From assembly GCA_021811625.1 (NCBI GenBank), contig JAJZNU010000008.1, positions 331 through 64,330 on the forward strand: 64,000 bases of DNA. The letters are read 5' to 3'. Source of the stretch: a bacterium (GTDB lineage Bacteria > Patescibacteriota > Saccharimonadia > Saccharimonadales > UBA4665). Shown here one piece after another: positions 6,107-53,732 of this stretch. The notes under the pieces were generated by a model that saw only the letters and a list, made by a program, of their open reading frames with translations, had not been told where the DNA came from and made no database searches. The position numbers and the translations under genes are program-made. The first letter of the stretch is position 1. Each line of letters opens with the position of its first letter.

Positions 6107-7450
6107 ATGTCAGAAGATCAGGAATTAAATAACACACAACCAGAAAAGACCGAAGACCAGAGTACGGTTGATTGGCACCCGACACACGAAGGTCTACTAA
6201 CAACCGGGCATCAAAAGGGAATCAGTTTGCCTCCAGAGCTGAGTGGCTATCGAGGGAAGCATAGCGGGTATCTACGCCCTGAGTTCAAGAGAGTCAAGTT
6301 TCTAGCAGTTGCCGGCATAGTTATAGTTGGACTAGCCTCGGGCTACCTGGGAGGGTGGATTGCAGCCGATCATAATAATAACCAAAGCGACAACACTACG
6401 CCGATTTCTTCTAAACAGACGGTAGTAAGCAGTACTAGTCAGGTTATTAGCCGGATAGCTAAGGTTGTCGGTCAGAGCGTTGTTTCGGTTAACGTTACTT
6501 CGCAAACCCCCACCAGCGGTATCTATAATATTTTCGGTGGAACCGGTGGTGCAACGACCCAGCAAGATGCCGGTACAGGGATAATACTATCGGCGGATGG
6601 GCTAATAATAACTAACCGGCACGTTATTCCTGTCGGCACTACAAATGTTAGTGTGACTTTGTCAGATGGTACCCAGTACAATAACGTTAAAGTTGTCGGA
6701 CGAACCAGCAACAGCGACAGTCTGGACATTGCTTTCCTTCAGATACAAAATCTCAACGGACGTAAATTAGTCCCCGTAACGCTGGGTGACTCCAGTCAGA
6801 TGCAGGTAGGGGATCAGGTCGTGGCCATAGGTAACGCGTTAGGACAATTCCAAAATACTGTCACCAGCGGTATCATTTCGGGTTACGGTCGTAGTGTTCA
6901 AGCCAGCGATAGTACCGGTACTACTTCGGAAAACCTCAGTGATCTGTTCCAGACTGATGCGGCGATAAATCAGGGAAACTCCGGTGGTCCCTTAGTTAAC
7001 CTCAGCGGGCAGGTTATCGGTATTAATACAGCTATTGCCACCAATTCGCAGAACATTGGCTTTGCAATACCGATCAACGACGTTACTGGGCTGATCAAGG
7101 GCGTAGAGCAAACGGGTAAGCTAGAACAGCCTTATCTGGGAGTGATTTATATACCGATAACCAGTGATATCGCCCAACAATACAACTTGAGTGCGACATC
7201 GGGAGCCTGGGTTCCACCGTCGGGTATAGTGGGCCAGACGGCGGTAATATCCGGCGGTCCAGCAGATAAAGCAGGAGTCAAACCCGGGGATATAATAACC
7301 GCTATTAATGGTAAAGCGATCAATCAGACTACCAGTTTAACGTCGATAATCGATCAGCAGTCAGTAGGGAATACCGTTACCCTAACGATCAATCGGAGTG
7401 GTAGCACTATCACACTCAAGGCCGTGCTGGGAACGGCTCCGACGAGCTGA
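6107..7450 (+). CDS. htrA: HtrA/DegP-family serine protease with PDZ domain, membrane anchored
   Basis: Strong SD (GGAGGGAGG) and an N-terminal TM. Triad context is TNRHV / DIAFLQI / GNSGGPLVN. A C-terminal PDZ is present (GGPADKAGVKPGDIITAING). Confidence 0.92.
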   Translation: MSEDQELNNTQPEKTEDQSTVDWHPTHEGLLTTGHQKGISLPPELSGYRGKHSGYLRPEFKRVKFLAVAGIVIVGLASGYLGGWIAADHNNNQSDNTTPISSKQTVVSSTSQVISRIAKVVGQSVVSVNVTSQTPTSGIYNIFGGTGGATTQQDAGTGIILSADGLIITNRHVIPVGTTNVSVTLSDGTQYNNVKVVGRTSNSDSLDIAFLQIQNLNGRKLVPVTLGDSSQMQVGDQVVAIGNALGQFQNTVTSGIISGYGRSVQASDSTGTTSENLSDLFQTDAAINQGNSGGPLVNLSGQVIGINTAIATNSQNIGFAIPINDVTGLIKGVEQTGKLEQPYLGVIYIPITSDIAQQYNLSATSGAWVPPSGIVGQTAVISGGPADKAGVKPGDIITAINGKAINQTTSLTSIIDQQSVGNTVTLTINRSGSTITLKAVLGTAPTS

Positions 7451-9783: not shown

Positions 9784-9875
9784 GAAGCAAATTGTATCTG
9801 TTTTACGGTGAAAAGTCAAAGCAAAAAACTATATTTTGCTATAATGTAGCTTGGACCCAAAAAATAAAAAATAAA

Positions 9876-11252
9876 ATGCGTCAAAAAAACGGTCGAGTCG
9901 TTAAGTATCTAAAGACTTCGGTATATCTATTATCGATAGCGATTATCGCTGTGCCGAGTGTCTTGACGCCGAGTGTTGGTCTGGCAGCCAGCGGACAAAT
10001 CTACCTTGCTCCGGCGACAGACTCAATACAAATCGGCAATACTTTTACCCTGGCATTAAGAATTAACCCTGGTACAGCAGTGAATGCCGTTCAAGCAACG
10101 GTGTCTTACGACCAAAACGCCTTGGAATTCATCTCGTCATCGATAGGAGTTTTTTCGACTTGTGTGAGTAATAGTGGGGGCGGCGGGAGCGTCACCCTGG
10201 CGTGTGCGATGCTTGGAACCAGCACTTCCAGCGATTCGCTGATTGACAACATAACCTTCAAAGCTCTGAGCGGCAGCGGAAATACGACCTTAAATCTTAT
10301 TAACGCTAACGCCTCTAATGCTGGGTCCTGGACAAACCCGAGCAGCAGCGGGGCCACCATAGATTTAACCTCACCACCCCCGCCGCCGCCATCGAATCCT
10401 GCGCCCGTCGCAACATCAACGCCTTCCAAAACAATAACTCATATATCCGCTCCAGTGACATCAACCTCGTCCGGAGGAACAGTAACTCCTCCGCCTGCTC
10501 CAGTCGTCGTGCCCGAGGCGCCCACCAACGTTAAACTCAATGTCGTCAGTCAAAATGTCAACTATACAAACGCGACCATAGCCATCAAAGCGACGGCAAG
10601 TGTCCAGCTATCACTAAAATACGGTCTATCGCCACAAACACTCGACAAAACTGCTCCGTTAACCGTAACCGGTCAGACGGCTCAACTTAATTTCGGATCG
10701 CTATCTCTAACGCCCGGTACGACGTACTACTATCAAGTGGTAGCCAGTTTTAACGGGTCAACCCTAACCGCTACTCCGGTGAGGACAATAACTACGAAGG
10801 GCTACACCGTGCAAGTAACCGTTTTGGATAGCAATTATCTTCCTTTAGTTGACAAGAAGGTTAGTCTCCACTCGGCGGCGCCAATCTATGCCTATACCAA
10901 TGCAGAAGGTGTAGCAACTTTTTCTAACGTGGCTCCGGGTTCGCATGAGCTCGATTACACATCAGGCGACCATTCTTATGTAAAAGGGGTCTATGTCCCC
11001 GACAATCTTACCGTCATACATGGGTCTGAGGTGGCGCCGATCCAGTCATCGGCTGTTGTGCTATCGGGCTACCGCCAGCCATCGTTTCGGTCTAGTTGGA
11101 CTTATTCAATAATACTAGCTATGGTGGCGGCCTTATGTGGCGGGTTGTTTACTTACTACAGGAAAGCTTTCCGGCGATTATTCGCGTTCATGTGGCGAAA
11201 GATTAAACGACATAGAGGGGTATTGCCGATAATCAACCGTCCTATTGGCTAA
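9876..11252 (+). CDS. Membrane-anchored surface protein: signal peptide, cohesin-like domain, Pro-rich linker, FN3-like domain, CarboxypepD_reg-like domain, C-terminal TM anchor
   Basis: The start is at ATG 9876 (MRQKNG...). The cohesin-like stretch is IYLAPATDSIQIGNTFTLALRINPGTAVNAVQATVSYDQNALEFISS, followed by a PPPPPPSNPAP linker. PGTTYYYQVV marks the FN3-like domain and VTVLDSNYLPLVDKKVSLHS...NAEGVATFSNVAPGSHEL the CarboxypepD_reg-like domain. The C-terminal TM (WTYSIILAMVAALCGGLFTYY) is followed by a basic tail. Confidence 0.7.
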   Translation: MRQKNGRVVKYLKTSVYLLSIAIIAVPSVLTPSVGLAASGQIYLAPATDSIQIGNTFTLALRINPGTAVNAVQATVSYDQNALEFISSSIGVFSTCVSNSGGGGSVTLACAMLGTSTSSDSLIDNITFKALSGSGNTTLNLINANASNAGSWTNPSSSGATIDLTSPPPPPPSNPAPVATSTPSKTITHISAPVTSTSSGGTVTPPPAPVVVPEAPTNVKLNVVSQNVNYTNATIAIKATASVQLSLKYGLSPQTLDKTAPLTVTGQTAQLNFGSLSLTPGTTYYYQVVASFNGSTLTATPVRTITTKGYTVQVTVLDSNYLPLVDKKVSLHSAAPIYAYTNAEGVATFSNVAPGSHELDYTSGDHSYVKGVYVPDNLTVIHGSEVAPIQSSAVVLSGYRQPSFRSSWTYSIILAMVAALCGGLFTYYRKAFRRLFAFMWRKIKRHRGVLPIINRPIG

Positions 11253-11302
11253 ATCTGTTTTTATAAAGTCTTTTACCGCTCGGCTCAGGCGTTTTTCCCG
11301 GG

Positions 11303-13084
11303 TTATTCACTTCCGTAGGCCTGTGCCAAAAGACTCAAGTCCAACAGATTAACGCAACCATCCTGATTTATGTCAGCACGACCCACCGATGGTGAGCATT
11401 GGCCGTAAGATGCTGCTAGCAGACTAAGGTCCAGCAAATCGATATGACCGTCCTCGTTAATATCCGCCGGGTAGGCCGTAAACGCCGAGACGGCAATCGA
11501 CGGCAAAGACGTGTTCCCGCTGGAATCATAGGCAACAACCTGATAATCATATGAGGTATTGGGAATTAGCGACCCATCCGTATAGGTTGTTGTAGAGGTT
11601 GTTGCAATCTGAGTGCCGTCCCGATAGACCATATATCCGCTAGGATTCCCGCTACCGGCTATCCAGCTAAGTTGGATGCTATTTTGGTTAATAGTCTTAG
11701 CGACAACGTCATTTGGCTGCGAGGGCAGGGAGATGAGGCCGGATAGTCCATTCGGGGATCCCAATCCGCTTGGAGTATCAAAGCCTATCGAGGCCGTACA
11801 GTGTGTGGTGTTAAGACTGGTACAGTCGTTGCCGGAAGTTATATCATGGAAAGCCGTCGAACTATATTTAGCGTATGGTACGGATGACCCGATAACCGAT
11901 GGGGGTATACCGCCGGAGAGCGCAAACATTCCGGCTATCAAAGGGGTTGCTAGAGATGTCCCGCCGATTTGATACCAAGTACCGTTTACATTTATCGCCG
12001 CCCCGGTGTTAGGATCTGCATCGGCTGACAGATCACCAAAAGATCGGTTGGCACCACATCCGTTAGAGGCCCAATCGCTTAGCGAGGTTTGCCAGGTAGG
12101 AGCTGGATAGTACGTCGAACAGCCGCCGCCAGAATCGACCCAAACCGTCTCATTCCCCCAGCTATTGTTCACTCCAAGCTGGAGAGTTGTGCCTGCTACC
12201 GAGACTACGTCCGGGTTGTCGCTTGGCCAAGAGGCTCCGTTCGACACCGAGCCCAGATCACCGGTGGCGGCAACAACCGCGATGCCGGGATAATCGAAAT
12301 AATTATCCAACGAAGGGTCGTCGGTATTTCCTCCCCAACTGTTGGATATCGATACCGGTTTAAGAGAAGCGGCTTCAGACTCAGCCGCAGCTAAGTCGGT
12401 GTCGACAGTATCATTTGCCTCCACTAGTGCTATCTTACAGGTCTGGCATACCATGTGAGCAGTTTCAACATCAAGCGCAATCTCGTTGCTCCAGCCGGCA
12501 TTAGCGGGAAGGGGAGAGGTAGCGCCATTTTGGTTGATGACGCTCAGACAGGAGTTGGCTATCGAACAAGTTGGAATGCCGTAGTAGGTATCATAATCAG
12601 CGAGCGACGTCTCGAGTGCGGAGTTCCCGCCTGTAAAACTTCCAGCGTCGACAATGGCAATTGTTTCCGGCCCGAAGGAAGTTGGCGTGGGACAGATCGA
12701 GGCAATAGTTCCACCCGGTGTGCAAGGCAGAGAATAGGCGGTATGGAACTCAGCGGGGCCGTAACTACCGGCATTGGCGGGACTGGCGGTTAAAGGTTGG
12801 TTTCCGTCCGGCATCATACTTATGTCCGACAGACAGCTAACGTTATTAACTGTCGGTGCCCGGCAAACACTCCGAATTGGTCGTGAAGACAGAGGTTGAA
12901 GTGCGCTAGCCCCGAAGCTTATGTGATAAGCAACAGAGTGCATCGTACTACCGTCTCCGGGAGGAGAAGACATCACAAAAAAGACAAAAAGCATTCCCAG
13001 AATAACGGCGTCACCACAGGCGATATATAGCCACTTTCGTCTGTGGGGGCGACAACGATTACTCGATTTGTAAATAATGAACAT
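11303..13084 (-). CDS. Secreted S53 (sedolisin/kumamolisin-type) serine peptidase with FN3 domain and C-terminal type-I dockerin
   Basis: There is an N-terminal signal anchor. S53 hallmarks are NEIALDVETAH (Glu, then Asp four residues later), ISNSWGG and IGGTSLATPLIAGMFAL. The FN3 domain is IQLSWIAGSGNPSGYMVYRDG...NTSYDYQVVAYD. Two EF-hand-like dockerin repeats are DINEDGHIDLLDLSLLAASYG and DINQDGCVNLLDLSLLAQAYG. Confidence 0.8.
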   Translation of the reverse strand: MFIIYKSSNRCRPHRRKWLYIACGDAVILGMLFVFFVMSSPPGDGSTMHSVAYHISFGASALQPLSSRPIRSVCRAPTVNNVSCLSDISMMPDGNQPLTASPANAGSYGPAEFHTAYSLPCTPGGTIASICPTPTSFGPETIAIVDAGSFTGGNSALETSLADYDTYYGIPTCSIANSCLSVINQNGATSPLPANAGWSNEIALDVETAHMVCQTCKIALVEANDTVDTDLAAAESEAASLKPVSISNSWGGNTDDPSLDNYFDYPGIAVVAATGDLGSVSNGASWPSDNPDVVSVAGTTLQLGVNNSWGNETVWVDSGGGCSTYYPAPTWQTSLSDWASNGCGANRSFGDLSADADPNTGAAINVNGTWYQIGGTSLATPLIAGMFALSGGIPPSVIGSSVPYAKYSSTAFHDITSGNDCTSLNTTHCTASIGFDTPSGLGSPNGLSGLISLPSQPNDVVAKTINQNSIQLSWIAGSGNPSGYMVYRDGTQIATTSTTTYTDGSLIPNTSYDYQVVAYDSSGNTSLPSIAVSAFTAYPADINEDGHIDLLDLSLLAASYGQCSPSVGRADINQDGCVNLLDLSLLAQAYGSE

Positions 13085-19604: not shown

Positions 19605-21137
19605 ATGCAGTGGTTAAATACCATCGCCGACGAGCTGATCAAACTTCACCCGTCTGGCGACATTATCGTATCGTCAGGCGTATCGCCATCGGGTACTTAT
19701 CATTTGGGGACCTTAAGGGAAGTGCTGACGGCGGAGGTGATTGCCATAGAACTCCGGAGGCGGGGAAGAGTTGCCAGGCACCTACACATTGTTGACGATC
19801 TCGACGTATTTCGGAAGGTCCCGGCTAACGTCTCCGATGAGTACACTCATTATCTGGGCCGACCGCTCTGCGATATCCCGGCCCCGGACGGTAGCGGACG
19901 ATCATACGCCGACTACTTTCTAAGTGACTTATTGATAGCTATCGATAAAATGAAACTTAGTGTCGAAATAGTTCGGGCGAATGAGAAATATCGTCAGGGT
20001 TTTTTCGTTCCAGCTATTGAAAAGTCGCTGGAGAAAGTGCAAGACATCCGAAAAATTCTTGAAACCGTTTCTGGTCGTCAGCTTGATGATCAATGGTCGC
20101 CGGTTCAAGTTCTGGAGGATGGTTACTTAAAAAACCGAGAGTTCGTAAGTATCGATCTTCAGAATAAGACCATAGAATATATAGGTAAGGACGATCAACC
20201 CTCCACGGTCAGTTACGCTCACGGAGAAGTTAAACTGAACTGGCGGATCGACTGGCCGGCGAGGTGGTGGCTTCTTGGTGTCAATGCCGAACCGTTTGGG
20301 CGTGATCATGCCACCAAGGGAGGGTCATACGACACCGGCGAGATAATAGCACGAAAAGTTTTCGACGTCACACCGCCGTTGCCGATACCCTACAATTTTA
20401 TAAACCGTGTGGGTGAGACGAAGAAAATGAGTAAAAGCGCCGGTAATGTTATAACCGCCGCCGCTTTATTAGACATAATGCCGGTGGAGATAATATGGTT
20501 CTTTATCTTGAGATTTCCGCCAGATAAGCAATTGTTTTTTGGTGAAGGGGAGACACTTCTTCGCCTATTCGATGAATTTTCAGCGCTCCTCTCCAAGCCG
20601 GACAAGTCAGAGGGAGAGAAACAGTTGCTTGAGCTCTGTCTGAATAAGGTAGCGCAGCCAACAGTAAGTCAGGTGCCTTTCTCGCATCTCGTAGCCAGCT
20701 ATCAGGCGGCGCTTAAAGATCCGGTAAAAACGTTGGCGGTGATTGCTCGGACAGAATACTCAGCAGTGGTTGCCAATGAGCCCGCGACTATCACTGCAGA
20801 GCTCAAGTTCATTGATATGTGGCTAAAAACATGGGCTCCTGAGCAGATTAAGTTTGATTTAGCGCCATCCTTTGATGAAAAACAATTTAGTGATTCTGAG
20901 AAAGATTTTTTGCAGAAACTCGGAGACAAGATTGACGACGCACCAGCAGATGCCGATGGCGATTGGTTTCATCGAGCTATTTATGAATTTAAAGATCAAG
21001 GACAGACTAACCCAAAGGAAATGTTCTCAGCTCTTTACAGACTCCTTATCGGGCAGTCGTCTGGTCCTCGGGCAGGGTGGTTTTTGAGCATTCTACCTAG
21101 GGATTGGCTAGTAAACCGACTGCACTTTAAGGGATAA
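19605..21137 (+). CDS. lysK: Class I lysyl-tRNA synthetase (archaeal/spirochaete type)
   Basis: SGVSPSGTYHLGTLREV (HIGH-like), DVFRKVP and KKMSKSAGN (KMSKS). The length and order match class I LysRS, not the OB-fold class II enzyme. Confidence 0.88.
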   Translation: MQWLNTIADELIKLHPSGDIIVSSGVSPSGTYHLGTLREVLTAEVIAIELRRRGRVARHLHIVDDLDVFRKVPANVSDEYTHYLGRPLCDIPAPDGSGRSYADYFLSDLLIAIDKMKLSVEIVRANEKYRQGFFVPAIEKSLEKVQDIRKILETVSGRQLDDQWSPVQVLEDGYLKNREFVSIDLQNKTIEYIGKDDQPSTVSYAHGEVKLNWRIDWPARWWLLGVNAEPFGRDHATKGGSYDTGEIIARKVFDVTPPLPIPYNFINRVGETKKMSKSAGNVITAAALLDIMPVEIIWFFILRFPPDKQLFFGEGETLLRLFDEFSALLSKPDKSEGEKQLLELCLNKVAQPTVSQVPFSHLVASYQAALKDPVKTLAVIARTEYSAVVANEPATITAELKFIDMWLKTWAPEQIKFDLAPSFDEKQFSDSEKDFLQKLGDKIDDAPADADGDWFHRAIYEFKDQGQTNPKEMFSALYRLLIGQSSGPRAGWFLSILPRDWLVNRLHFKG

Positions 21138-34540: not shown

Positions 34541-35842
34541 ATGATGAAACTGCTAATAAATCAAACAAAAAAAATGCTTCAAAAAATTAGACTATTTCGG
34601 CATCTTCCGATAATTCGACGACTATCGAATATGCAGTTTATAGTAGTTATTAGTTGTTTTCTAGCTGGAAGCGTTGCCGCTCCTATGGTATATGCTTCAA
34701 CCCTGCAAGACCAAATTAATTCTCTGCAGGCTCAAAACTCTCAAACCGAATCAAACCTCAATTCTCTACAGCTTCAGGCGGCGAGTTACCAGGATGCTGT
34801 CAATCAACTCCAATCGCAGATTTATTCTCTCCGGCTGGCTATACAGGCCAATGAAGCAAAACAAGTAGACCTACAACAGCAGATACAATCAAGTGACCAA
34901 CAAATAGCTCAACAAAAACAGATACTAGGATCTTATATAAAGGCAATCTATGTCGGCGGCCAGATGAGCACAGTTGAGGAGTTAGCTACAAGCAAGAGTC
35001 TAAGTGACTTTGTTGACTCCCAGACCTATCGTAACGCGGTTCAGAGTCAGATTCAGACAACGCTAGCACAGATCACAGCGCTAGAAGCACAGCTCAAGAC
35101 CCAGCAGGTTCAGGTTACTCAGTTGTTGCAAACGCAGAACACGCAGCAGGCACAACTAGATGCCGAGGAAAGTCAGCAAGCTCAACTATTGTCCTACAAC
35201 CAAAGTCAGCAAGCGCAGTATAATCAACAAATCGCTGCAAACCAATCTGAGATTGCGACGCTTAAAGCCGAACAAGTTGCTGCTGACGCTGCTATTGCTA
35301 AAACTGTGCAGTACCAGCCACCTAGCAACCAAAACGCTCAAGCTGCGTGCAATAACGGAGAGGGGACTGGTGGATATCCGTTAGCCTGGTGCAACGCTTA
35401 TCAAGATGCGATTCCTACCATTCCGAACGACGGCGGGAGTGGCGATAACCGTGAATGCACTTCGTATGCGTACTGGTATTTTACGTCGATAGAACACCAG
35501 TCGGGATTTAATGTAAGTGGTAATGCCGGTTGGTGGTGGGAAACAAGTAATTATCCGGTAACAACCTGGAATTCCAGCGTAAAGGACGGGGCGATTGGCA
35601 TTGAACCTTCAAGCTCTTTGAGTGCGCCGGTTAGAACTTACCATACTTCTATAGATGGCGGATACTACGGCCATGTCATGATTGTTCAGGCTTTACCTGG
35701 CGAGAGCTACCCGGGCTTCAATAACGGGCAAGCGGTGCCGTCTGGTGACGTACTTGTTAGCAGCATGAATGAAGATGGGCAGGGACACTTTCAGCTAAAT
35801 CTTTGGCCAGTTAACTACTTACTATTTATCAACCCCCAGTAA
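34541..35842 (+). CDS. Secreted coiled-coil + CHAP-domain peptidoglycan hydrolase (PcsB-like architecture)
   Basis: It has a signal/TM segment and about 200 aa of Gln-rich heptad coiled coil. The C-terminal CHAP domain carries the catalytic Cys (NRECTSYAYWYF) and His (YYGHVMIVQ). The start is uncertain (34541 or the internal MQFIVV). Confidence 0.78.
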   Translation: MMKLLINQTKKMLQKIRLFRHLPIIRRLSNMQFIVVISCFLAGSVAAPMVYASTLQDQINSLQAQNSQTESNLNSLQLQAASYQDAVNQLQSQIYSLRLAIQANEAKQVDLQQQIQSSDQQIAQQKQILGSYIKAIYVGGQMSTVEELATSKSLSDFVDSQTYRNAVQSQIQTTLAQITALEAQLKTQQVQVTQLLQTQNTQQAQLDAEESQQAQLLSYNQSQQAQYNQQIAANQSEIATLKAEQVAADAAIAKTVQYQPPSNQNAQAACNNGEGTGGYPLAWCNAYQDAIPTIPNDGGSGDNRECTSYAYWYFTSIEHQSGFNVSGNAGWWWETSNYPVTTWNSSVKDGAIGIEPSSSLSAPVRTYHTSIDGGYYGHVMIVQALPGESYPGFNNGQAVPSGDVLVSSMNEDGQGHFQLNLWPVNYLLFINPQ

Positions 35843-52106: not shown

Positions 52107-53732
52107 TTATTTAATGTATGGTAAGGTCGTGGTTGTCCCGGCTGGCGCTGAGGGTGTCGTAGAAGGGGATGTGGTCGTAGAGGTCGGCGAGGGCCCTTCA
52201 TTAAAAATAAATTGTCCATTATTGACGCTAACCGTCCAAGGCGTTTCGTTGCTGAACTGATATGCCTGCTCCTGGGTCGTCGCGTTACCAAATTCCAACC
52301 CATTGCGATCTTTTATGAATGCATTTTGAATAATACCATTAACATCTGTGGGTGGATAGATCAGTGCACCGCTTGAGACCTCGGTATCAACCGACTTGGA
52401 CGAGCTGAGAGGATAGAAATCTACAACGGTGCCTTCATCGGATGCATCGATTGCCGACACCATACCTGTGTTATTGTAGTATCCAAGCATCAGATCACCA
52501 TTTTGACCAACTGAGATAAGCGGGTTATCAATGACCAATGCATTATTAATACCCGGGCCGCCACCCTTACCTTGGTAAGTAACCACGGCCGTACCGCGGA
52601 CGATTGTCCGATTCAGATTGGGATTACTAAACTGAAGACCCGCCTGATAAACTGATTCGTAAACAGCTGTCCCCTCGCCAGGGATAGCTTGACTATTGGG
52701 GACTAAATTAATTACATCTGTAGATTTTGGCGCTTTAAAGTTAAATCCGCAAGCTGCCGCATATTTACTCCAGTCTACGCCAGGAAAATTAAGTCTCATC
52801 TCAGCAAGATAACCTTTAGGATCATAGTCAGGGAATGTAGTTCCTCCATACAGGTTACTGAAGCCCCAGAAGCCCGACAGCGTCCCAATTATTTTTGGCT
52901 TGCCATCCTCGATAACATAACCGCTTGAACCGCTGGCTCCAAAACTACACACCGAATCATCGATTTTAGATTCACGTTTTGGTATGGCAGTTACTACCAC
53001 ATCAATTGTTTCGCCATTGGTCATCGTGGTTGTCGTCTGACCTATGTAAGGCATAGCAAACTGCTGGGCGGTCAGGGAGTCTGGAGTGTTTTCTTCTTGG
53101 TTGATTGGCCATCCGCGCATGTAAACCATAGATTTCTCGGGTACTAGTTTATTAATCTCATCATCAGATAATCTTTCAGCCCGATAACTATTCACTACTT
53201 CTTGTTCGGTGGCTCCCACCAAAACACCTAAAGCGTGATCGCTATTAAGACCATTACCGACTATAACCTCTGTAAGCTGTCCGATTGGTGTCATATTTGT
53301 TTGAGAGGTCCCTGTTTCGGCGATTGGAGGTTGAACAAAATCGTAGGTTTGTCCATTAACAGTAGTTAAGGGCTCATTTACTCCTATACAGTGTTTAGCG
53401 AACGCCACCCCAACCGGAGGAGCAGTGAGATTGCCGTTCTTATGAATTAGAGTTCCCGAACAGCCGATGCCCTGCAGATAAACCGTATTCTCGTTGGCAA
53501 ACGTTTGAGCTACTGCGGGCAAGGGAAATTCCGAGGTCTGATTACCTATCTCGTTGCCCACTGCATATGGAGTCACTGTCGGTGATTCACCTAAGGCGGT
53601 AGCCGAGGCGGGGGCAGCGGACAGTTGCTCGGTAATGGATGTTGCACCGCCATTCAACGCTGCAATAGCGAGACCAACTCGCAGTGCTGCGTTGGCGACA
53701 GGATGTTGATGGTTTTGATAATTTTCAGACAT
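52107..53732 (-). CDS. Secreted chymotrypsin-fold (S1-like) serine peptidase with unknown C-terminal domain and Thr/Pro/Ser-rich tail
   Basis: Triad-like contexts are GCSGTLIHKNG...VAFAKHCIG (His), NSDHALGVLVG (Asp) and CSFGASGSSGYVI (Ser). The C-terminal ~240 aa has no motif I recognise, and the tail is SPTSTTTSPSTTPSAPAGTTTT. The N-terminal signal is weak. Confidence 0.55.
   Translation of the reverse strand: MSENYQNHQHPVANAALRVGLAIAALNGGATSITEQLSAAPASATALGESPTVTPYAVGNEIGNQTSEFPLPAVAQTFANENTVYLQGIGCSGTLIHKNGNLTAPPVGVAFAKHCIGVNEPLTTVNGQTYDFVQPPIAETGTSQTNMTPIGQLTEVIVGNGLNSDHALGVLVGATEQEVVNSYRAERLSDDEINKLVPEKSMVYMRGWPINQEENTPDSLTAQQFAMPYIGQTTTTMTNGETIDVVVTAIPKRESKIDDSVCSFGASGSSGYVIEDGKPKIIGTLSGFWGFSNLYGGTTFPDYDPKGYLAEMRLNFPGVDWSKYAAACGFNFKAPKSTDVINLVPNSQAIPGEGTAVYESVYQAGLQFSNPNLNRTIVRGTAVVTYQGKGGGPGINNALVIDNPLISVGQNGDLMLGYYNNTGMVSAIDASDEGTVVDFYPLSSSKSVDTEVSSGALIYPPTDVNGIIQNAFIKDRNGLEFGNATTQEQAYQFSNETPWTVSVNNGQFIFNEGPSPTSTTTSPSTTPSAPAGTTTTLPYIK

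What the first reader, a model, noticed from the sequence alone, without database searches (positions are those of the whole stretch)
9876..13084. Convergent cohesin / dockerin gene pair predicted to tether an S53 protease to a membrane-anchored scaffold
Seen in sequence:
- The plus-strand gene (9876-11252) encodes a signal peptide, a cohesin-like module (roughly nt 9990-10390), a poly-Pro linker, FN3-like and CarboxypepD_reg-like domains, and a C-terminal TM anchor with a basic tail.
- Its stop lies 50 nt from the stop of a minus-strand gene (11303-13084).
- That gene encodes a sedolisin-type (S53) peptidase ending in an FN3 domain and two canonical Ca-binding dockerin repeats (roughly nt 11303-11470).

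Established knowledge: cohesin-dockerin pairs assemble enzymes on scaffoldins in cellulosomes, and non-cellulosomal pairs exist in many lineages. Most of those have unknown cargo logic.

Inference: the two genes form a minimal one-scaffold, one-enzyme surface display module for a protease. In a reduced, probably host-dependent cell, this could serve peptide scavenging or host-surface remodelling.
Basis: partly seen in the sequence, partly recalled or inferred. Interest (0 to 1): 0.7.

Follow-up and report, generated by a model that had tools for sequence, protein, structure and literature searches.

The report
Cohesin–dockerin tether for a surface protease
Two back-to-back genes in a tiny, probably host-dependent soil bacterium (Saccharimonadales) encode a membrane-anchored stalk tipped with a cohesin and a secreted S53 protease ending in a dockerin; the two genes stay together across many distant relatives, so the cell very probably plugs the protease onto its own surface with the connector system best known from cellulosomes.

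Summary
Gene A (9876-11252, +) has a signal peptide, a cohesin (Pfam above cutoff; predicted fold matches solved cohesins), a Pro/Thr linker, two beta-sandwich domains, a TM helix and a basic tail. Gene B (11303-13084, -) has an N-terminal hydrophobic segment, an S53 sedolisin-type peptidase with all four catalytic residues invariant but no prodomain, an FN3 domain and a canonical two-repeat dockerin. The stop codons are 50 nt apart.

Comparative evidence ties the genes together:
- In 13 of 14 loci with an S53-FN3-dockerin gene, a cohesin-scaffold gene lies convergently next to it. The flanking genes differ in all but the closest relative.
- Three S53 relatives without a dockerin have no cohesin gene nearby.
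- One relative appears to fuse cohesin, S53 and dockerin in one protein.
- More distant scaffold homologues sit beside other dockerin proteins: Big_7, a metallopeptidase, a giant protein.

"One scaffold, one enzyme" holds locally but is not established, since the same dockerin subtype occurs on another cargo class. This is a new variant of a known kind (non-cellulosomal cohesin-dockerin surface display). I found no description of it in the searchable literature.

The parts
9876..11252 (+). Gene A: type I membrane scaffold protein, 458 aa (signal peptide, cohesin, linker, two beta-sandwiches, TM helix, basic tail)
   Evidence: ORF; identical 458-aa gene called in ENA contigs; 35 full-length homologues, those with a source name labelled Candidatus Saccharimonadales, with the same architecture; AF2 mean pLDDT 81.6
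9876..9986 (+). Signal peptide, aa 1-37 (basic n-region, hydrophobic core, conserved xLA|A(T/S)G site)
   Evidence: Hydropathy peak at aa 8-40; helix 9-30 in the model; conserved 'LAATG' junction in the alignment. Cleavage is inferred; no signal-peptide predictor was available
9987..10370 (+). Cohesin module, aa 38-165, at the mature N-terminus (tip of the stalk)
   Evidence: Pfam Cohesin 32.2 bits > GA 24.1; Foldseek PDB hits are cohesins, with TM 0.74-0.77 and rmsd 1.9-3.1 A to CaCohA2 in complex with a dockerin, plus 2w1n, 2xdh, 3ul4 and 4dh2; most conserved domain of the protein
10371..10520 (+). Pro/Thr/Ser-rich disordered linker, aa 166-215
   Evidence: Sequence SPPPPPPSNPAPVA...TPPPAPVVVPEAP; pLDDT <50 for aa 180-205; length and sequence vary among homologues
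10521..10793 (+). FN3-like beta-sandwich, aa 216-306
   Evidence: Weak Pur_ac_phosph_N hit, 18.8 bits, below cutoff; 5 of 33 homologues hit at E<=1e-3; confident beta-sandwich in the model; invariant LxPGTxYYY motif
10794..11063 (+). CarboxypepD_reg/prealbumin-like beta-sandwich, aa 307-396, with invariant L331-H332-S333, G345, F349, P354-G355, H357
   Evidence: Weak in this protein (18.6 bits) but 21 of 33 homologues hit PF13620; pLDDT >90; invariant columns
11094..11249 (+). C-terminal TM helix (aa 407-427) and basic cytoplasmic tail (aa 428-458); no LPXTG motif
   Evidence: Hydropathy peak from aa 407; helices 407-427 and 429-448; tail YYRKAFRRLFAFMWRKIKRHRG
11253..11302 (.). 50-nt convergent intergenic spacer; no convincing intrinsic terminator
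   Evidence: In relatives the spacer ranges from about 0-10 nt to about 320 nt, from ORF and called-gene coordinates
11303..13084 (-). Gene B: secreted S53 (sedolisin-type) peptidase with C-terminal FN3 and dockerin, 593 aa
   Evidence: ORF; most of the top 75 cluster representatives share the length and carry dockerin and/or fn3; AF2 mean pLDDT 88.8, pTM 0.79
12968..13084 (-). N-terminal basic region plus 21-residue hydrophobic helix (aa 1-39): signal peptide or signal anchor
   Evidence: Hydropathy peak at aa 17-41; helix 18-38; a hydrophobic segment at the same place in orthologues. Whether it is cleaved is not determined
11723..12907 (-). S53 catalytic domain, aa 60-454. Catalytic E201 (12482-12484), D205 (12470-12472), oxyanion D276 (12257-12259), nucleophile S377 (11954-11956). 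No prodomain
   Evidence: Kumamolisin E=1.6e-23 with aligned E-x-x-L-D, GD-G and GGTS motifs; Foldseek top 17 hits are S53 structures, TM 0.72-0.78 for mature-enzyme chains; E201, D205, D276 and S377 plus 11 Cys invariant in 58 relatives; codons checked
11477..11722 (-). FN3 spacer domain, aa 455-536
   Evidence: Pfam fn3 33.3 bits > GA 25; PDB FN3 hits
11306..11467 (-). Type I-like dockerin, aa 540-593: two 22-residue repeats (DINEDGHIDLLDLSLLAASYGQ / DINQDGCVNLLDLSLLAQAYGS)
   Evidence: Pfam Dockerin_1 30.5 bits > GA 22.9; PDB dockerin 2y3n_B at 9.5e-6; three helices 550-558, 565-570, 580-589; the two repeats are 68% identical here and 73% on average in orthologues, with parallel substitutions; least divergent module of both proteins

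Best explanation
A and B form a two-gene surface-display module of a Saccharimonadales (CPR/Patescibacteria) cell.

A is exported and its signal peptide removed. It stays in the membrane through its C-terminal TM helix with a basic cytoplasmic tail. It projects, from the membrane outwards, two rigid beta-sandwich domains, a roughly 50-residue Pro/Thr linker and a single cohesin at the tip.

B is exported separately from its own promoter. It folds into a disulfide-rich, catalytically competent S53 serine-carboxyl peptidase. Its C-terminal Ca-binding dockerin plugs into the cohesin of A, probably in either of two symmetric orientations. This keeps the protease on the cell's outer surface instead of letting it diffuse away.

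The tethered protease then cuts extracellular or host-surface proteins into peptides for a cell that cannot make most of its own building blocks.

Shown here: the domain identities, the folds, the intact active site, and the conserved, dockerin-dependent gene linkage.

Inferred: physical cohesin-dockerin binding, cleavage of B's N-terminal segment, the substrates and the physiological role.
For: 1. Bona fide modules. Cohesin and dockerin both score above their Pfam gathering cutoffs. The cohesin fold matches solved cohesins at TM 0.74-0.77. The dockerin has canonical D-x-N-x-D-G-x5-D loops and three helices.
2. Active enzyme. B is homologous to kumamolisin at E=1.6e-23, has the sedolisin fold, and E201, D205, D276 and S377 are invariant in 58 relatives.
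3. Linkage. The S53-FN3-dockerin gene has a convergent cohesin-scaffold neighbour in 13 of 14 loci examined: the window, L003-L009, L015, L020-L022 and L024. The flanking genes are shared only with the closest relative, L003.
4. Natural experiment. S53 relatives whose C-terminus is a lectin, a Big_7 domain or nothing (L016-L018) have no cohesin within 6 kb.
5. Fusion. P0119 combines a probable cohesin, the S53 core and a dockerin in one polypeptide (family HMM 27 bits; hhalign E=7e-5; Pfam dockerin).
6. Distant scaffold homologues are always next to a dockerin gene whatever the cargo. L025 has a Big_7 x3-dockerin protein. L010 has NHL-, metallopeptidase- and adaptor-dockerin proteins. L031 has a giant dockerin protein.
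7. The dockerin and the cohesin are the most conserved modules of their proteins. Their pairwise divergences correlate at r=0.49 (partial r 0.29-0.41), more than the dockerin correlates with its own adjacent FN3 domain at r=0.21.
8. The two dockerin repeats stay symmetric, at 73% mean identity with parallel substitutions. That is expected if both faces must fit one cohesin.
9. Precedent. The single-cohesin, surface-anchored Sca2 of Ruminococcus bromii binds peptidase-borne dockerins in vitro (PMC4611034).
Against: - No direct or modelled evidence of binding.
- The genes are convergent, so they are not co-transcribed.
- One S53-dockerin locus (L023) has no scaffold within 5 kb.
- The same dockerin subtype occurs on a non-protease cargo (L025, P0266, P0279), so the cohesin may not be dedicated to B.
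- If B's N-terminal helix is an uncleaved anchor, a dockerin would not be needed for retention.
- Conservation is not enriched on the putative dockerin-binding 8-3-6-5 sheet (0.62 vs 0.68). The strand assignment was crude, so this test is inconclusive.
- The mirror-tree correlation is moderate and confounded by phylogeny.
- Classical S53 enzymes need a prodomain and acidic pH. Neither could be assessed here.
Confidence: 0.75

Rival explanations
1. General docking post, not a dedicated pair. The single cohesin of A is a shared socket for several dockerin-bearing proteins encoded elsewhere in the genome (S53 peptidase, Big_7/unknown-domain proteins and others). B is only one of several alternating cargos, and the adjacency reflects the ancestral or most frequent client.
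For: In L025 the scaffold homologue is followed co-directionally by a Big_7 x3 protein. Its dockerin (DINQDGHVDLLDFSLLASKFNQ...) is nearly identical to that of S53 orthologues of the same clade. Fragments P0266 and P0279 carry the same subtype on Big_7 proteins. The Woykebacteria locus L010 has three dockerin cargos beside one scaffold. R. bromii Sca2 is such a general anchor (PMC4611034).
Against: In about 230 kb of Saccharimonadales DNA examined around the pair (the 64-kb window plus 13 loci) no second dockerin or cohesin gene was found. Thirteen of 14 S53-dockerin genes keep the scaffold as immediate neighbour. This rival refines the main explanation rather than contradicting it.
Confidence: 0.35
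2. Doubly anchored cis complex. B's N-terminal helix is an uncleaved signal anchor, so both proteins sit in the same membrane. The cohesin-dockerin contact then positions, orients or regulates the protease (for example by lifting it through the wall, or holding it until autoprocessing releases it from its own anchor) rather than serving retention.
For: The hydrophobic segment of B is 21 residues long and modelled as a helix (aa 18-38), followed by a disordered 15-residue tether. There is no prodomain, so another control over activity would make sense. An N-terminal hydrophobic segment is present in all orthologues.
Against: Small-residue sites compatible with signal peptidase I follow the hydrophobic core in every orthologue I inspected in the alignment (my reading, not a predictor). 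Gram-positive-type signal peptides are long. A dockerin is costly if retention is already ensured.
Confidence: 0.15
3. Independent surface proteins. The cohesin-like module binds something else (host surface, cell-wall polymer) and the dockerin acts as a Ca-dependent stabilising or glycan/adhesin module, as was speculated for the essential dockerin protein of Southlakia. On this reading the adjacency reflects shared regulation or common descent only.
For: Non-cellulosomal dockerins have been proposed as adhesins or glycan binders (PMC10633639; PMC10066038). The genes are convergent and have separate promoter-like sites. No interface was computed.
Against: The link follows the dockerin, not the protease. 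Dockerin-less S53 paralogues lack a cohesin neighbour, and scaffold homologues neighbour dockerin genes with unrelated cargos. The flanks are not conserved, so shared descent of a region does not explain the pairing. A probable fusion protein exists.
Confidence: 0.08
4. Trans (cell-to-cell) connector. The dockerin of B on one cell binds the cohesin of A on a neighbouring Saccharimonadales cell, or a cohesin-like receptor on the host, and so mediates adhesion.
For: Both partners may be membrane-linked. The fusion protein P0119 could polymerise head to tail, like R. bromii Amy4.
Against: There is no evidence for host cohesins. A catalytically intact, highly conserved protease is unnecessary for an adhesin.
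Confidence: 0.04

Closest known systems
Single-cohesin cell-surface anchoring proteins of Firmicutes (Clostridium thermocellum OlpA/OlpC; Ruminococcus bromii Sca2 / R. flavefaciens ScaE)
   Same: One cohesin on a cell-bound protein tethers individual dockerin-bearing enzymes directly to the surface. The OlpA and OlpC cohesins are among the structural matches (3ul4, 4dh2). R. bromii Sca2 was shown to bind dockerins of peptidases (PMC4611034).
   Different: Those proteins are anchored by SLH modules or sortase (my knowledge for OlpA/OlpC; sortase for Sca2 is), not by a C-terminal TM helix. They sit in genomes with tens to hundreds of dockerins. They are not kept as a conserved two-gene pair with one client. 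The lineage here is CPR/Saccharimonadales and the client is an S53 peptidase.
Non-cellulosomal cohesin-dockerin modules of Clostridium perfringens glycosidases and toxins (e.g. GH84C cohesin-FN3, PDB 2w1n) and of Archaeoglobus fulgidus (PDB 2xdh)
   Same: Cohesin or dockerin used outside plant-cell-wall degradation, in a host-associated organism. The cohesin is followed by an FN3-type domain. 2w1n is the top structural hit (E=7e-11) and 2xdh is also a hit.
   Different: There the cohesins sit on the secreted enzymes themselves and build enzyme-enzyme complexes (my knowledge of that literature). There is no membrane scaffold and no protease cargo.
Cellulosome / amylosome scaffoldin systems
   Same: The same connector logic (cohesin socket, duplicated Ca-binding dockerin plug, probable dual binding mode). 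Dockerin-bearing peptidases are known in R. flavefaciens (16 peptidase modules among 222 dockerin proteins; PMC2930009). An enzyme carrying both cohesin and dockerin (Amy4) self-associates, as the P0119 fusion might.
   Different: There is no multi-cohesin scaffoldin, no CBM and no carbohydrate-active cargo in the pair. Stoichiometry is 1:1. The genome is about 1 Mb and housekeeping-dominated.
Sedolisin/kumamolisin (MEROPS S53) peptidases
   Same: The same fold and the same Glu-Asp-Ser triad plus oxyanion Asp. The C-terminal Ca-site motif D-x-P-x-G-L-G-x-P is present.
   Different: There is no roughly 180-residue activation prodomain. About 45 extra N-terminal residues with two invariant Cys are present instead, together with many disulfide Cys and C-terminal FN3 and dockerin modules.
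SEML1_0315, the essential dockerin-domain envelope protein of the cultured saccharibacterium Southlakia epibionticum
   Same: A dockerin-bearing cell-envelope protein in Saccharibacteria, found essential by Tn-seq (PMC10633639).
   Different: It is a 927-aa protein with three Ig/FN3-like domains and no peptidase. Its neighbours are an alpha/beta hydrolase and a tRNA gene, not a cohesin gene. No S53, subtilase or cohesin term appears in that paper's supplementary tables.

Membership tests
Cohesin (Pfam PF00963) | Sequence matches the family HMM above the curated gathering score | tested here: met
   32.2 bits vs GA 24.1, E=1.4e-7, aa 48-151 covering profile positions 8-123 of 139. 10 of 33 family members also hit at E<=1e-3
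Cohesin (Pfam PF00963) | Nine-stranded beta-sandwich fold superimposable on solved cohesins | tested here: met
   AF2 model with nine strands in aa 41-165, mostly pLDDT about 90. Foldseek hits: CaCohA2 at TM 0.74-0.77 and rmsd 1.9-3.1 A, plus ScaB Coh7, OlpA, OlpC, and the A. fulgidus and C. perfringens cohesins
Cohesin (Pfam PF00963) | Binds a dockerin with high affinity in a Ca-dependent way | not testable with these tools
Only indirect comparative evidence is available
Dockerin type I (Pfam PF00404) | Sequence matches the family HMM above the gathering score | tested here: met
   30.5 bits vs GA 22.9, aa 540-588; phmmer hit to the dockerin of PDB 2y3n_B at 9.5e-6
Dockerin type I (Pfam PF00404) | Two duplicated segments of about 22 residues, each an EF-hand-like loop D-x-N-x-D-G-x5-D followed by a helix | tested here: met
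   DINEDGHIDLLD-LSLLAASYGQ and DINQDGCVNLLD-LSLLAQAYGS; helices 550-558 and 580-589 with a short middle helix 565-570
Dockerin type I (Pfam PF00404) | Internal symmetry of the recognition positions (dual binding mode) | tested here: inconclusive
   The repeats are 68% identical here and 73% on average in 18 orthologues, with Leu-Leu at positions 10/11 in both and parallel L13F changes. This is compatible with dual binding, but binding was not measured
Peptidase family S53 (sedolisins) | Homology to sedolisin/kumamolisin catalytic domain rather than S8 subtilisins | tested here: met
   Kumamolisin-As E=1.6e-23 and sedolisin 6e-13 by sequence. The 17 best structural hits are all S53, with S8 enzymes far behind
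Peptidase family S53 (sedolisins) | Catalytic Glu-Asp-Ser triad plus oxyanion-hole Asp | tested here: met
   E201 and D205 (NEIALDVE), D276 (ATGDLGS) and S377 (GGTSLA) align to the corresponding kumamolisin motifs and are invariant in 58 relatives
Peptidase family S53 (sedolisins) | N-terminal pro-kumamolisin-type activation domain (PF09286) in the precursor | tested here: not met
   No Pfam hit even at E<=1. The match to pro-kumamolisin 1t1e starts at its residue 216, after the prodomain. Only aa 60-107 precede the mature-domain start, and they are modelled as part of the catalytic domain. This is a feature of the precursors, not of the catalytic unit
Peptidase family S53 (sedolisins) | Proteolytic activity with an acidic optimum | not testable with these tools
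   Requires enzymology
Cellulosome (scaffoldin-based multi-enzyme complex) | Scaffoldin with several cohesins and a carbohydrate-binding module | tested here: not met
   A has one cohesin and no CBM hit
Cellulosome (scaffoldin-based multi-enzyme complex) | Dockerin-bearing carbohydrate-active enzymes as cargo | tested here: not met
   The cargo is an S53 peptidase. No other dockerin gene is in the 64-kb window
Cellulosome (scaffoldin-based multi-enzyme complex) | Attachment to the cell by SLH modules or sortase (LPXTG) | tested here: not met
   No SLH hit and no LPXTG in the sequence. Instead there is a C-terminal TM helix and a basic tail
Non-cellulosomal cohesin-dockerin pair (functional class) | Cohesin and dockerin encoded in the same genome on proteins unrelated to plant cell-wall breakdown, with evidence that they are partners | tested here: met
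   Conserved adjacency in 13 of 14 loci with unrelated flanks. The link depends on the dockerin. A probable fusion protein exists. Partnership is supported genomically, not biochemically

The most novel reading that the evidence does not exclude
The pair may be the simplest form of a CPR-wide, so far undescribed 'plug-in' surface system. A family of TM-anchored single-cohesin stalks is found in Saccharimonadales and at least Woykebacteria. Interchangeable dockerin cargos clip onto them: S53 peptidase, metallopeptidase, NHL or Big_7 proteins, giant proteins, and adaptor proteins carrying both modules. Ultra-small epibiotic bacteria would use this system to digest or grip the surface of their hosts, and it could be required for the episymbiotic lifestyle, as the essential dockerin protein of Southlakia hints.
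Probability: 0.25. Interest if true: 0.75.

Novelty: new variant of a known kind. Interest (0 to 1): 0.55.

Why it matters
CPR/Patescibacteria are abundant and mostly uncultured, and they depend on other cells. How they equip their surface to feed on or hold on to hosts is largely unknown.

Here a well-understood, experimentally tractable protein connector appears in its most reduced form: one socket and one plug. It is attached to a protease and conserved as a gene pair across deeply diverged Saccharimonadales.

That gives a directly testable hypothesis for surface proteolysis in these organisms, using two small recombinant modules, Ca-dependent binding and localisation of one enzyme. It also offers a compact orthogonal cohesin-dockerin pair for protein engineering, and a natural clade of prodomain-less sedolisins.

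It is not a new principle. Non-cellulosomal cohesin-dockerin pairs and dockerin-bearing peptidases are already known in Firmicutes.

Tried and rejected
1. Complex prediction.
2. A dockerin-only (63 aa) search in the word-indexed protein database returned only the query itself, which wasted one search.
3. An exhaustive phmmer search with the dockerin against 1.8 billion representatives gave 6862 hits. The top of the list was dominated by multi-dockerin proteins, so it was of little use for counting clients. It did reveal Big_7 fragments with the same subtype.
4. The first search for related loci attempt with the 33-sequence alignment failed for lack of a conserved stretch.
5. Conservation of the putative dockerin-binding sheet (strands 8-3-6-5) against the other sheet showed no enrichment (0.62 vs 0.68). 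This is inconclusive without coordinates.
6. The mirror-tree test gave a moderate signal only (r=0.49, partial r 0.29-0.41), so I treat it as suggestive.
7. No convincing intrinsic terminator lies between the genes.
8. Sequence search of the N-terminal domain of the L025 cargo against PDB was uninformative.
10. Rejected: S8 subtilase identity (the S53 motifs and fold are decisive), cellulosome membership (three defining features not met), and sortase anchoring (no LPXTG).
11. The Peer et al. 2009 review could not be read.

Full report
**1. What is there**

The two ORFs are exactly as described. Gene A runs 9876-11252 on the plus strand and encodes 458 aa. The mechanical ORF begins at a TTG at 9792. 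The ATG at 9876 is supported by the ENA gene call on two independent contigs and by the N-termini of 33 aligned homologues. Gene B runs 11303-13084 on the minus strand and encodes 593 aa. The two stop codons are 50 nt apart. Base composition around the pair is unremarkable.

**2. Domains of A**

- Pfam finds a cohesin at aa 48-151: 32.2 bits against a gathering score of 24.1.
- An AlphaFold2 model built on the 33-sequence family alignment has mean pLDDT 81.6. It shows an N-terminal helix (the signal peptide), nine beta-strands in aa 41-165, a disordered Pro/Thr/Ser linker (aa 166-215, pLDDT <50 for 180-205), two further beta-sandwiches (aa 216-306 and 307-396), a TM helix (407-427) and a basic helix (429-448).
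- Foldseek against the PDB returns cohesins. The top hit is the C. perfringens GH84C cohesin-FN3 double module 2w1n (E=7e-11). C. acetobutylicum CohA2, solved in complex with a dockerin, matches at TM 0.74-0.77 and rmsd 1.9-3.1 A. Type I cohesins of ScaB, OlpA and OlpC and the non-cellulosomal A. fulgidus cohesin also match.
Across the family, 21 of 33 members hit CarboxypepD_reg and 5 of 33 hit the FN3-like Pur_ac_phosph_N domain.
- There is no LPXTG motif, so anchoring is by the TM helix and the basic tail.

**3. Domains of B**

- Pfam finds fn3 (33.3 bits), Dockerin_1 (30.5 bits) and the S8/S53 clan model (23.1 bits), all above their cutoffs.
- The peptidase is S53, not S8. Sequence search of the PDB gives kumamolisin-As at E=1.6e-23 and sedolisin at 6e-13, with the E-x-x-L-D, GD-G and GGTS motifs aligned.
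- The AF2 model has mean pLDDT 88.8 and pTM 0.79. Its 17 best structural matches are all sedolisin, kumamolisin or TPP1.
- E201, D205, D276 and S377 are invariant in 58 relatives, as are eleven cysteines.
- The match to pro-kumamolisin begins after its prodomain, and Pfam finds no activation domain even at E<=1. Only about 45 residues (aa 60-107) precede the mature-domain start, and they are modelled confidently as part of the catalytic domain.
- The N-terminus has a basic stretch and a 21-residue hydrophobic helix (aa 18-38), followed by a disordered tether. I could not decide whether it is a cleaved signal peptide or a signal anchor.
- The dockerin (aa 540-593) has two canonical loops, DINEDGHIDLLD and DINQDGCVNLLD, and three helices.

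**4. Organism and context**

Homologues of both proteins that carry a source name are labelled Candidatus Saccharimonadales or Saccharibacteria. Several come from soil metagenomes or MAGs. The window is dominated by housekeeping genes: L31, RF1, PrmC and HtrA upstream; S2, EF-Ts, RRF, ProRS, class I LysRS, SecA, SerRS, CTP synthase and PBP2 downstream. It holds no other cohesin or dockerin.

**5. Is the pairing more than chance?**

I collected loci around homologues from species-representative genomes, metagenome assemblies and long contigs.

| Class of locus | Loci | Cohesin-scaffold or dockerin neighbour? |
|---|---|---|
| S53-FN3-dockerin gene | window, L003-L009, L015, L020-L022, L024 | Convergent cohesin-scaffold neighbour in all 13 (in L024 a 97-aa ORF lies between) |
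| S53-FN3-dockerin gene | L023 | No scaffold within 5 kb; its dockerin is divergent |
| S53 without a dockerin | L016 (B_lectin), L017 (Big_7), L018 (no extra module) | No cohesin within 6 kb in any of the 3 |
| Scaffold homologue, other cargo | L025, L010, L031 | A dockerin gene is adjacent in all 3 |

- The scaffold proteins in these loci are only 37-50% identical to A.
- The neighbouring genes of the window are shared only with the closest relative, L003. In the others nothing but the pair is common. In the 1.12-Mb contig L015, for example, the pair lies between a glucokinase gene and hypothetical genes, with type IV secretion pilin genes and a cellulase gene further out.
- With roughly a thousand genes per genome and one gene of each kind, chance adjacency would be of the order of 0.2% per genome (my estimate). 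Repeated in more than ten rearranged genomes, it is negligible.

**6. The link follows the dockerin, not the protease**

- The S53 core family is large: 2194 hits at E<=1e-5. Some relatives replace FN3-dockerin by a B_lectin domain, a Big_7 domain or nothing. None of the three examined has a cohesin nearby.
- Distant homologues of the scaffold sit beside dockerin genes with other cargos.
  - In L025 a co-directional gene, 1 nt downstream, encodes a signal peptide, an unassigned N-domain of about 130 aa, three Big_7 domains and a dockerin of the same subtype.
  - In the Woykebacteria locus L010 three dockerin proteins precede the scaffold: NHL/Big_7, an M11/M12-like metallopeptidase, and a protein with both a cohesin and a dockerin.
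  - In L031 a protein of more than 1988 aa ending in a dockerin directly precedes a 379-aa cohesin protein.
- One relative, P0119 (L019), appears to unite all three parts in one chain. Its N-terminal module matches the family cohesin HMM at 27 bits over 123 of 128 positions and by hhalign at E=7e-5, probability 63%. It is followed by the S53 core, a Pro-rich linker and a Pfam-significant dockerin. The generic Pfam cohesin model does not detect this module, so I call it probable. It resembles R. bromii Amy4, whose cohesin binds its own dockerin (PMC4611034).

**7. Module evolution**

- Across 20 orthologous pairs the dockerin is the least divergent module (mean distance 0.29). The cohesin (0.44) diverges less than the rest of the scaffold (0.56).
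- Cohesin and dockerin distances correlate at r=0.49. The partial r is 0.29-0.41 after removing the S53, scaffold-rest and FN3 distances. The dockerin correlates only at r=0.21 with the FN3 domain next to it. This is suggestive, not decisive.
- The two dockerin repeats remain 73% identical on average and change in parallel. L13F occurs in both repeats of one clade, and P0026 has 95% identical repeats. That is what a dual-binding-mode dockerin facing a single cohesin would show.
- A crude test for extra conservation on the expected binding sheet of the cohesin was negative or inconclusive.

**8. Mechanism proposed**

- A is a type I membrane protein. Its cohesin is held at the end of a stalk made of two beta-sandwiches and a 50-residue extended linker. 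By my estimate from residue counts, that is long enough to cross a Gram-positive-type wall.
- B is secreted. It folds as a disulfide-rich active sedolisin and is captured by its dockerin.
- The shown parts are the module identities, the intact active site and the dockerin-dependent gene linkage.
- The inferred parts are binding, processing of B's N-terminus, substrates and benefit. The benefit could be peptide supply for an auxotrophic epibiont, or remodelling of a host surface.
- I put 0.75 on the tethering model. Whether the socket is dedicated to B or shared with other dockerin proteins is open. The second cargo class in L025, P0266 and P0279 argues that, at least in some lineages, it is shared.

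**9. Comparison with what is known**

- The system works like the single-cohesin anchoring proteins of Firmicutes. It is closest to R. bromii Sca2, which binds peptidase-borne dockerins, and to OlpA and OlpC, which are structural hits.
- Dockerin-bearing peptidases are documented in R. flavefaciens.
- It is not a cellulosome. There is one cohesin, no CBM, no CAZyme cargo and no SLH or sortase anchor.
- NCBI's pipeline already labels individual homologues 'cohesin domain-containing protein', 'dockerin type I domain-containing protein' or 'S53 family peptidase', so the parts are annotated.
- Full-text searches for cohesin or dockerin together with Saccharibacteria, Patescibacteria or CPR, and for sedolisin/S53 with dockerin or Saccharibacteria, found no description of the pair.
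- The one related statement concerns a different, essential dockerin protein of Southlakia, interpreted as glycan-targeting.

**10. Verdict**

This is a new variant of a known kind of system and moderately interesting. It would not shock a specialist, but it provides a clean, minimal and testable handle on the surface biology of CPR bacteria.

Noticed in passing
window 11723-12907 (-), B aa 60-454; relatives P0037-P0156: The whole S53 clade lacks the pro-kumamolisin activation domain that sedolisins normally use as an intramolecular chaperone and inhibitor. About 45 N-terminal residues with two invariant Cys (C74, C84) are present instead, and 11 Cys are invariant overall. How these enzymes fold and stay inactive before export is unexplained.
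   Followed up: partly
window 10794-11063 (+), A aa 307-396: The membrane-proximal CarboxypepD_reg-like domain of the scaffold is as conserved as the cohesin (mean column identity 0.64 vs 0.66). Its invariant residues are L331-H332-S333, T341, G345, F349, P354-G355 and H357. That suggests a second binding or functional site (wall polymer? metal?).
   Followed up: no
L019 6001-7992 (+), protein P0119 (GCA_040384245.1): A single 663-aa protein with a probable N-terminal cohesin, the S53 core, a poly-Pro linker and a C-terminal dockerin. It could self-polymerise head to tail, like R. bromii Amy4.
   Followed up: partly
L010 2017-11191 (+) (Candidatus Woykebacteria; same region as L027): An expanded version of the system. 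Three tandem dockerin proteins (NHL/Big_7; M11/M12-like metallopeptidase/Big_7/NEW3; and an adaptor with cohesin, Big_7 x3, FN3 and dockerin) lie directly upstream of a scaffold homologue.
   Followed up: partly
L025 5001-7979 (+); fragments P0266, P0279: The most distant Saccharimonadales-type scaffold homologue is followed co-directionally (1-nt gap) by a protein with a signal peptide, an unassigned domain of about 130 aa, three Big_7 domains and a dockerin of the same subtype as the S53 enzymes. This is a second cargo class.
   Followed up: partly
L031 1-7104 (+): A giant protein (more than 1988 aa, cut by the contig end) ending in a dockerin lies directly upstream of a 379-aa protein with a cohesin related to this family.
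   Followed up: no
L023 5001-6818 (+) (soil metagenome contig, 118 kb): This is the only S53-FN3-dockerin gene found without a neighbouring scaffold; a TetR gene follows instead. Its dockerin is divergent (NVTDLSILL / NVFDLSILL). A weak dockerin-like remnant ORF lies at 7115-7429 (-).
   Followed up: no
window 11306-11467 (-); also L003, L006, P0042, P0215: A sub-clade-specific pair of cysteines in the dockerin (GQC...DGC) could form a disulfide between the inter-repeat linker and the second Ca-binding loop.
   Followed up: no
window 19605-21137 (+): The lysyl-tRNA synthetase is of class I type (PF01921, E=1e-94), the form typical of archaea and a minority of bacteria.
   Followed up: no
window 52107-53732 (-) and 34541-35842 (+): Two long ORFs (541 and 433 aa) have no Pfam match at E<=1e-5. 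The first is one of the few minus-strand genes in a largely plus-strand stretch.
   Followed up: no
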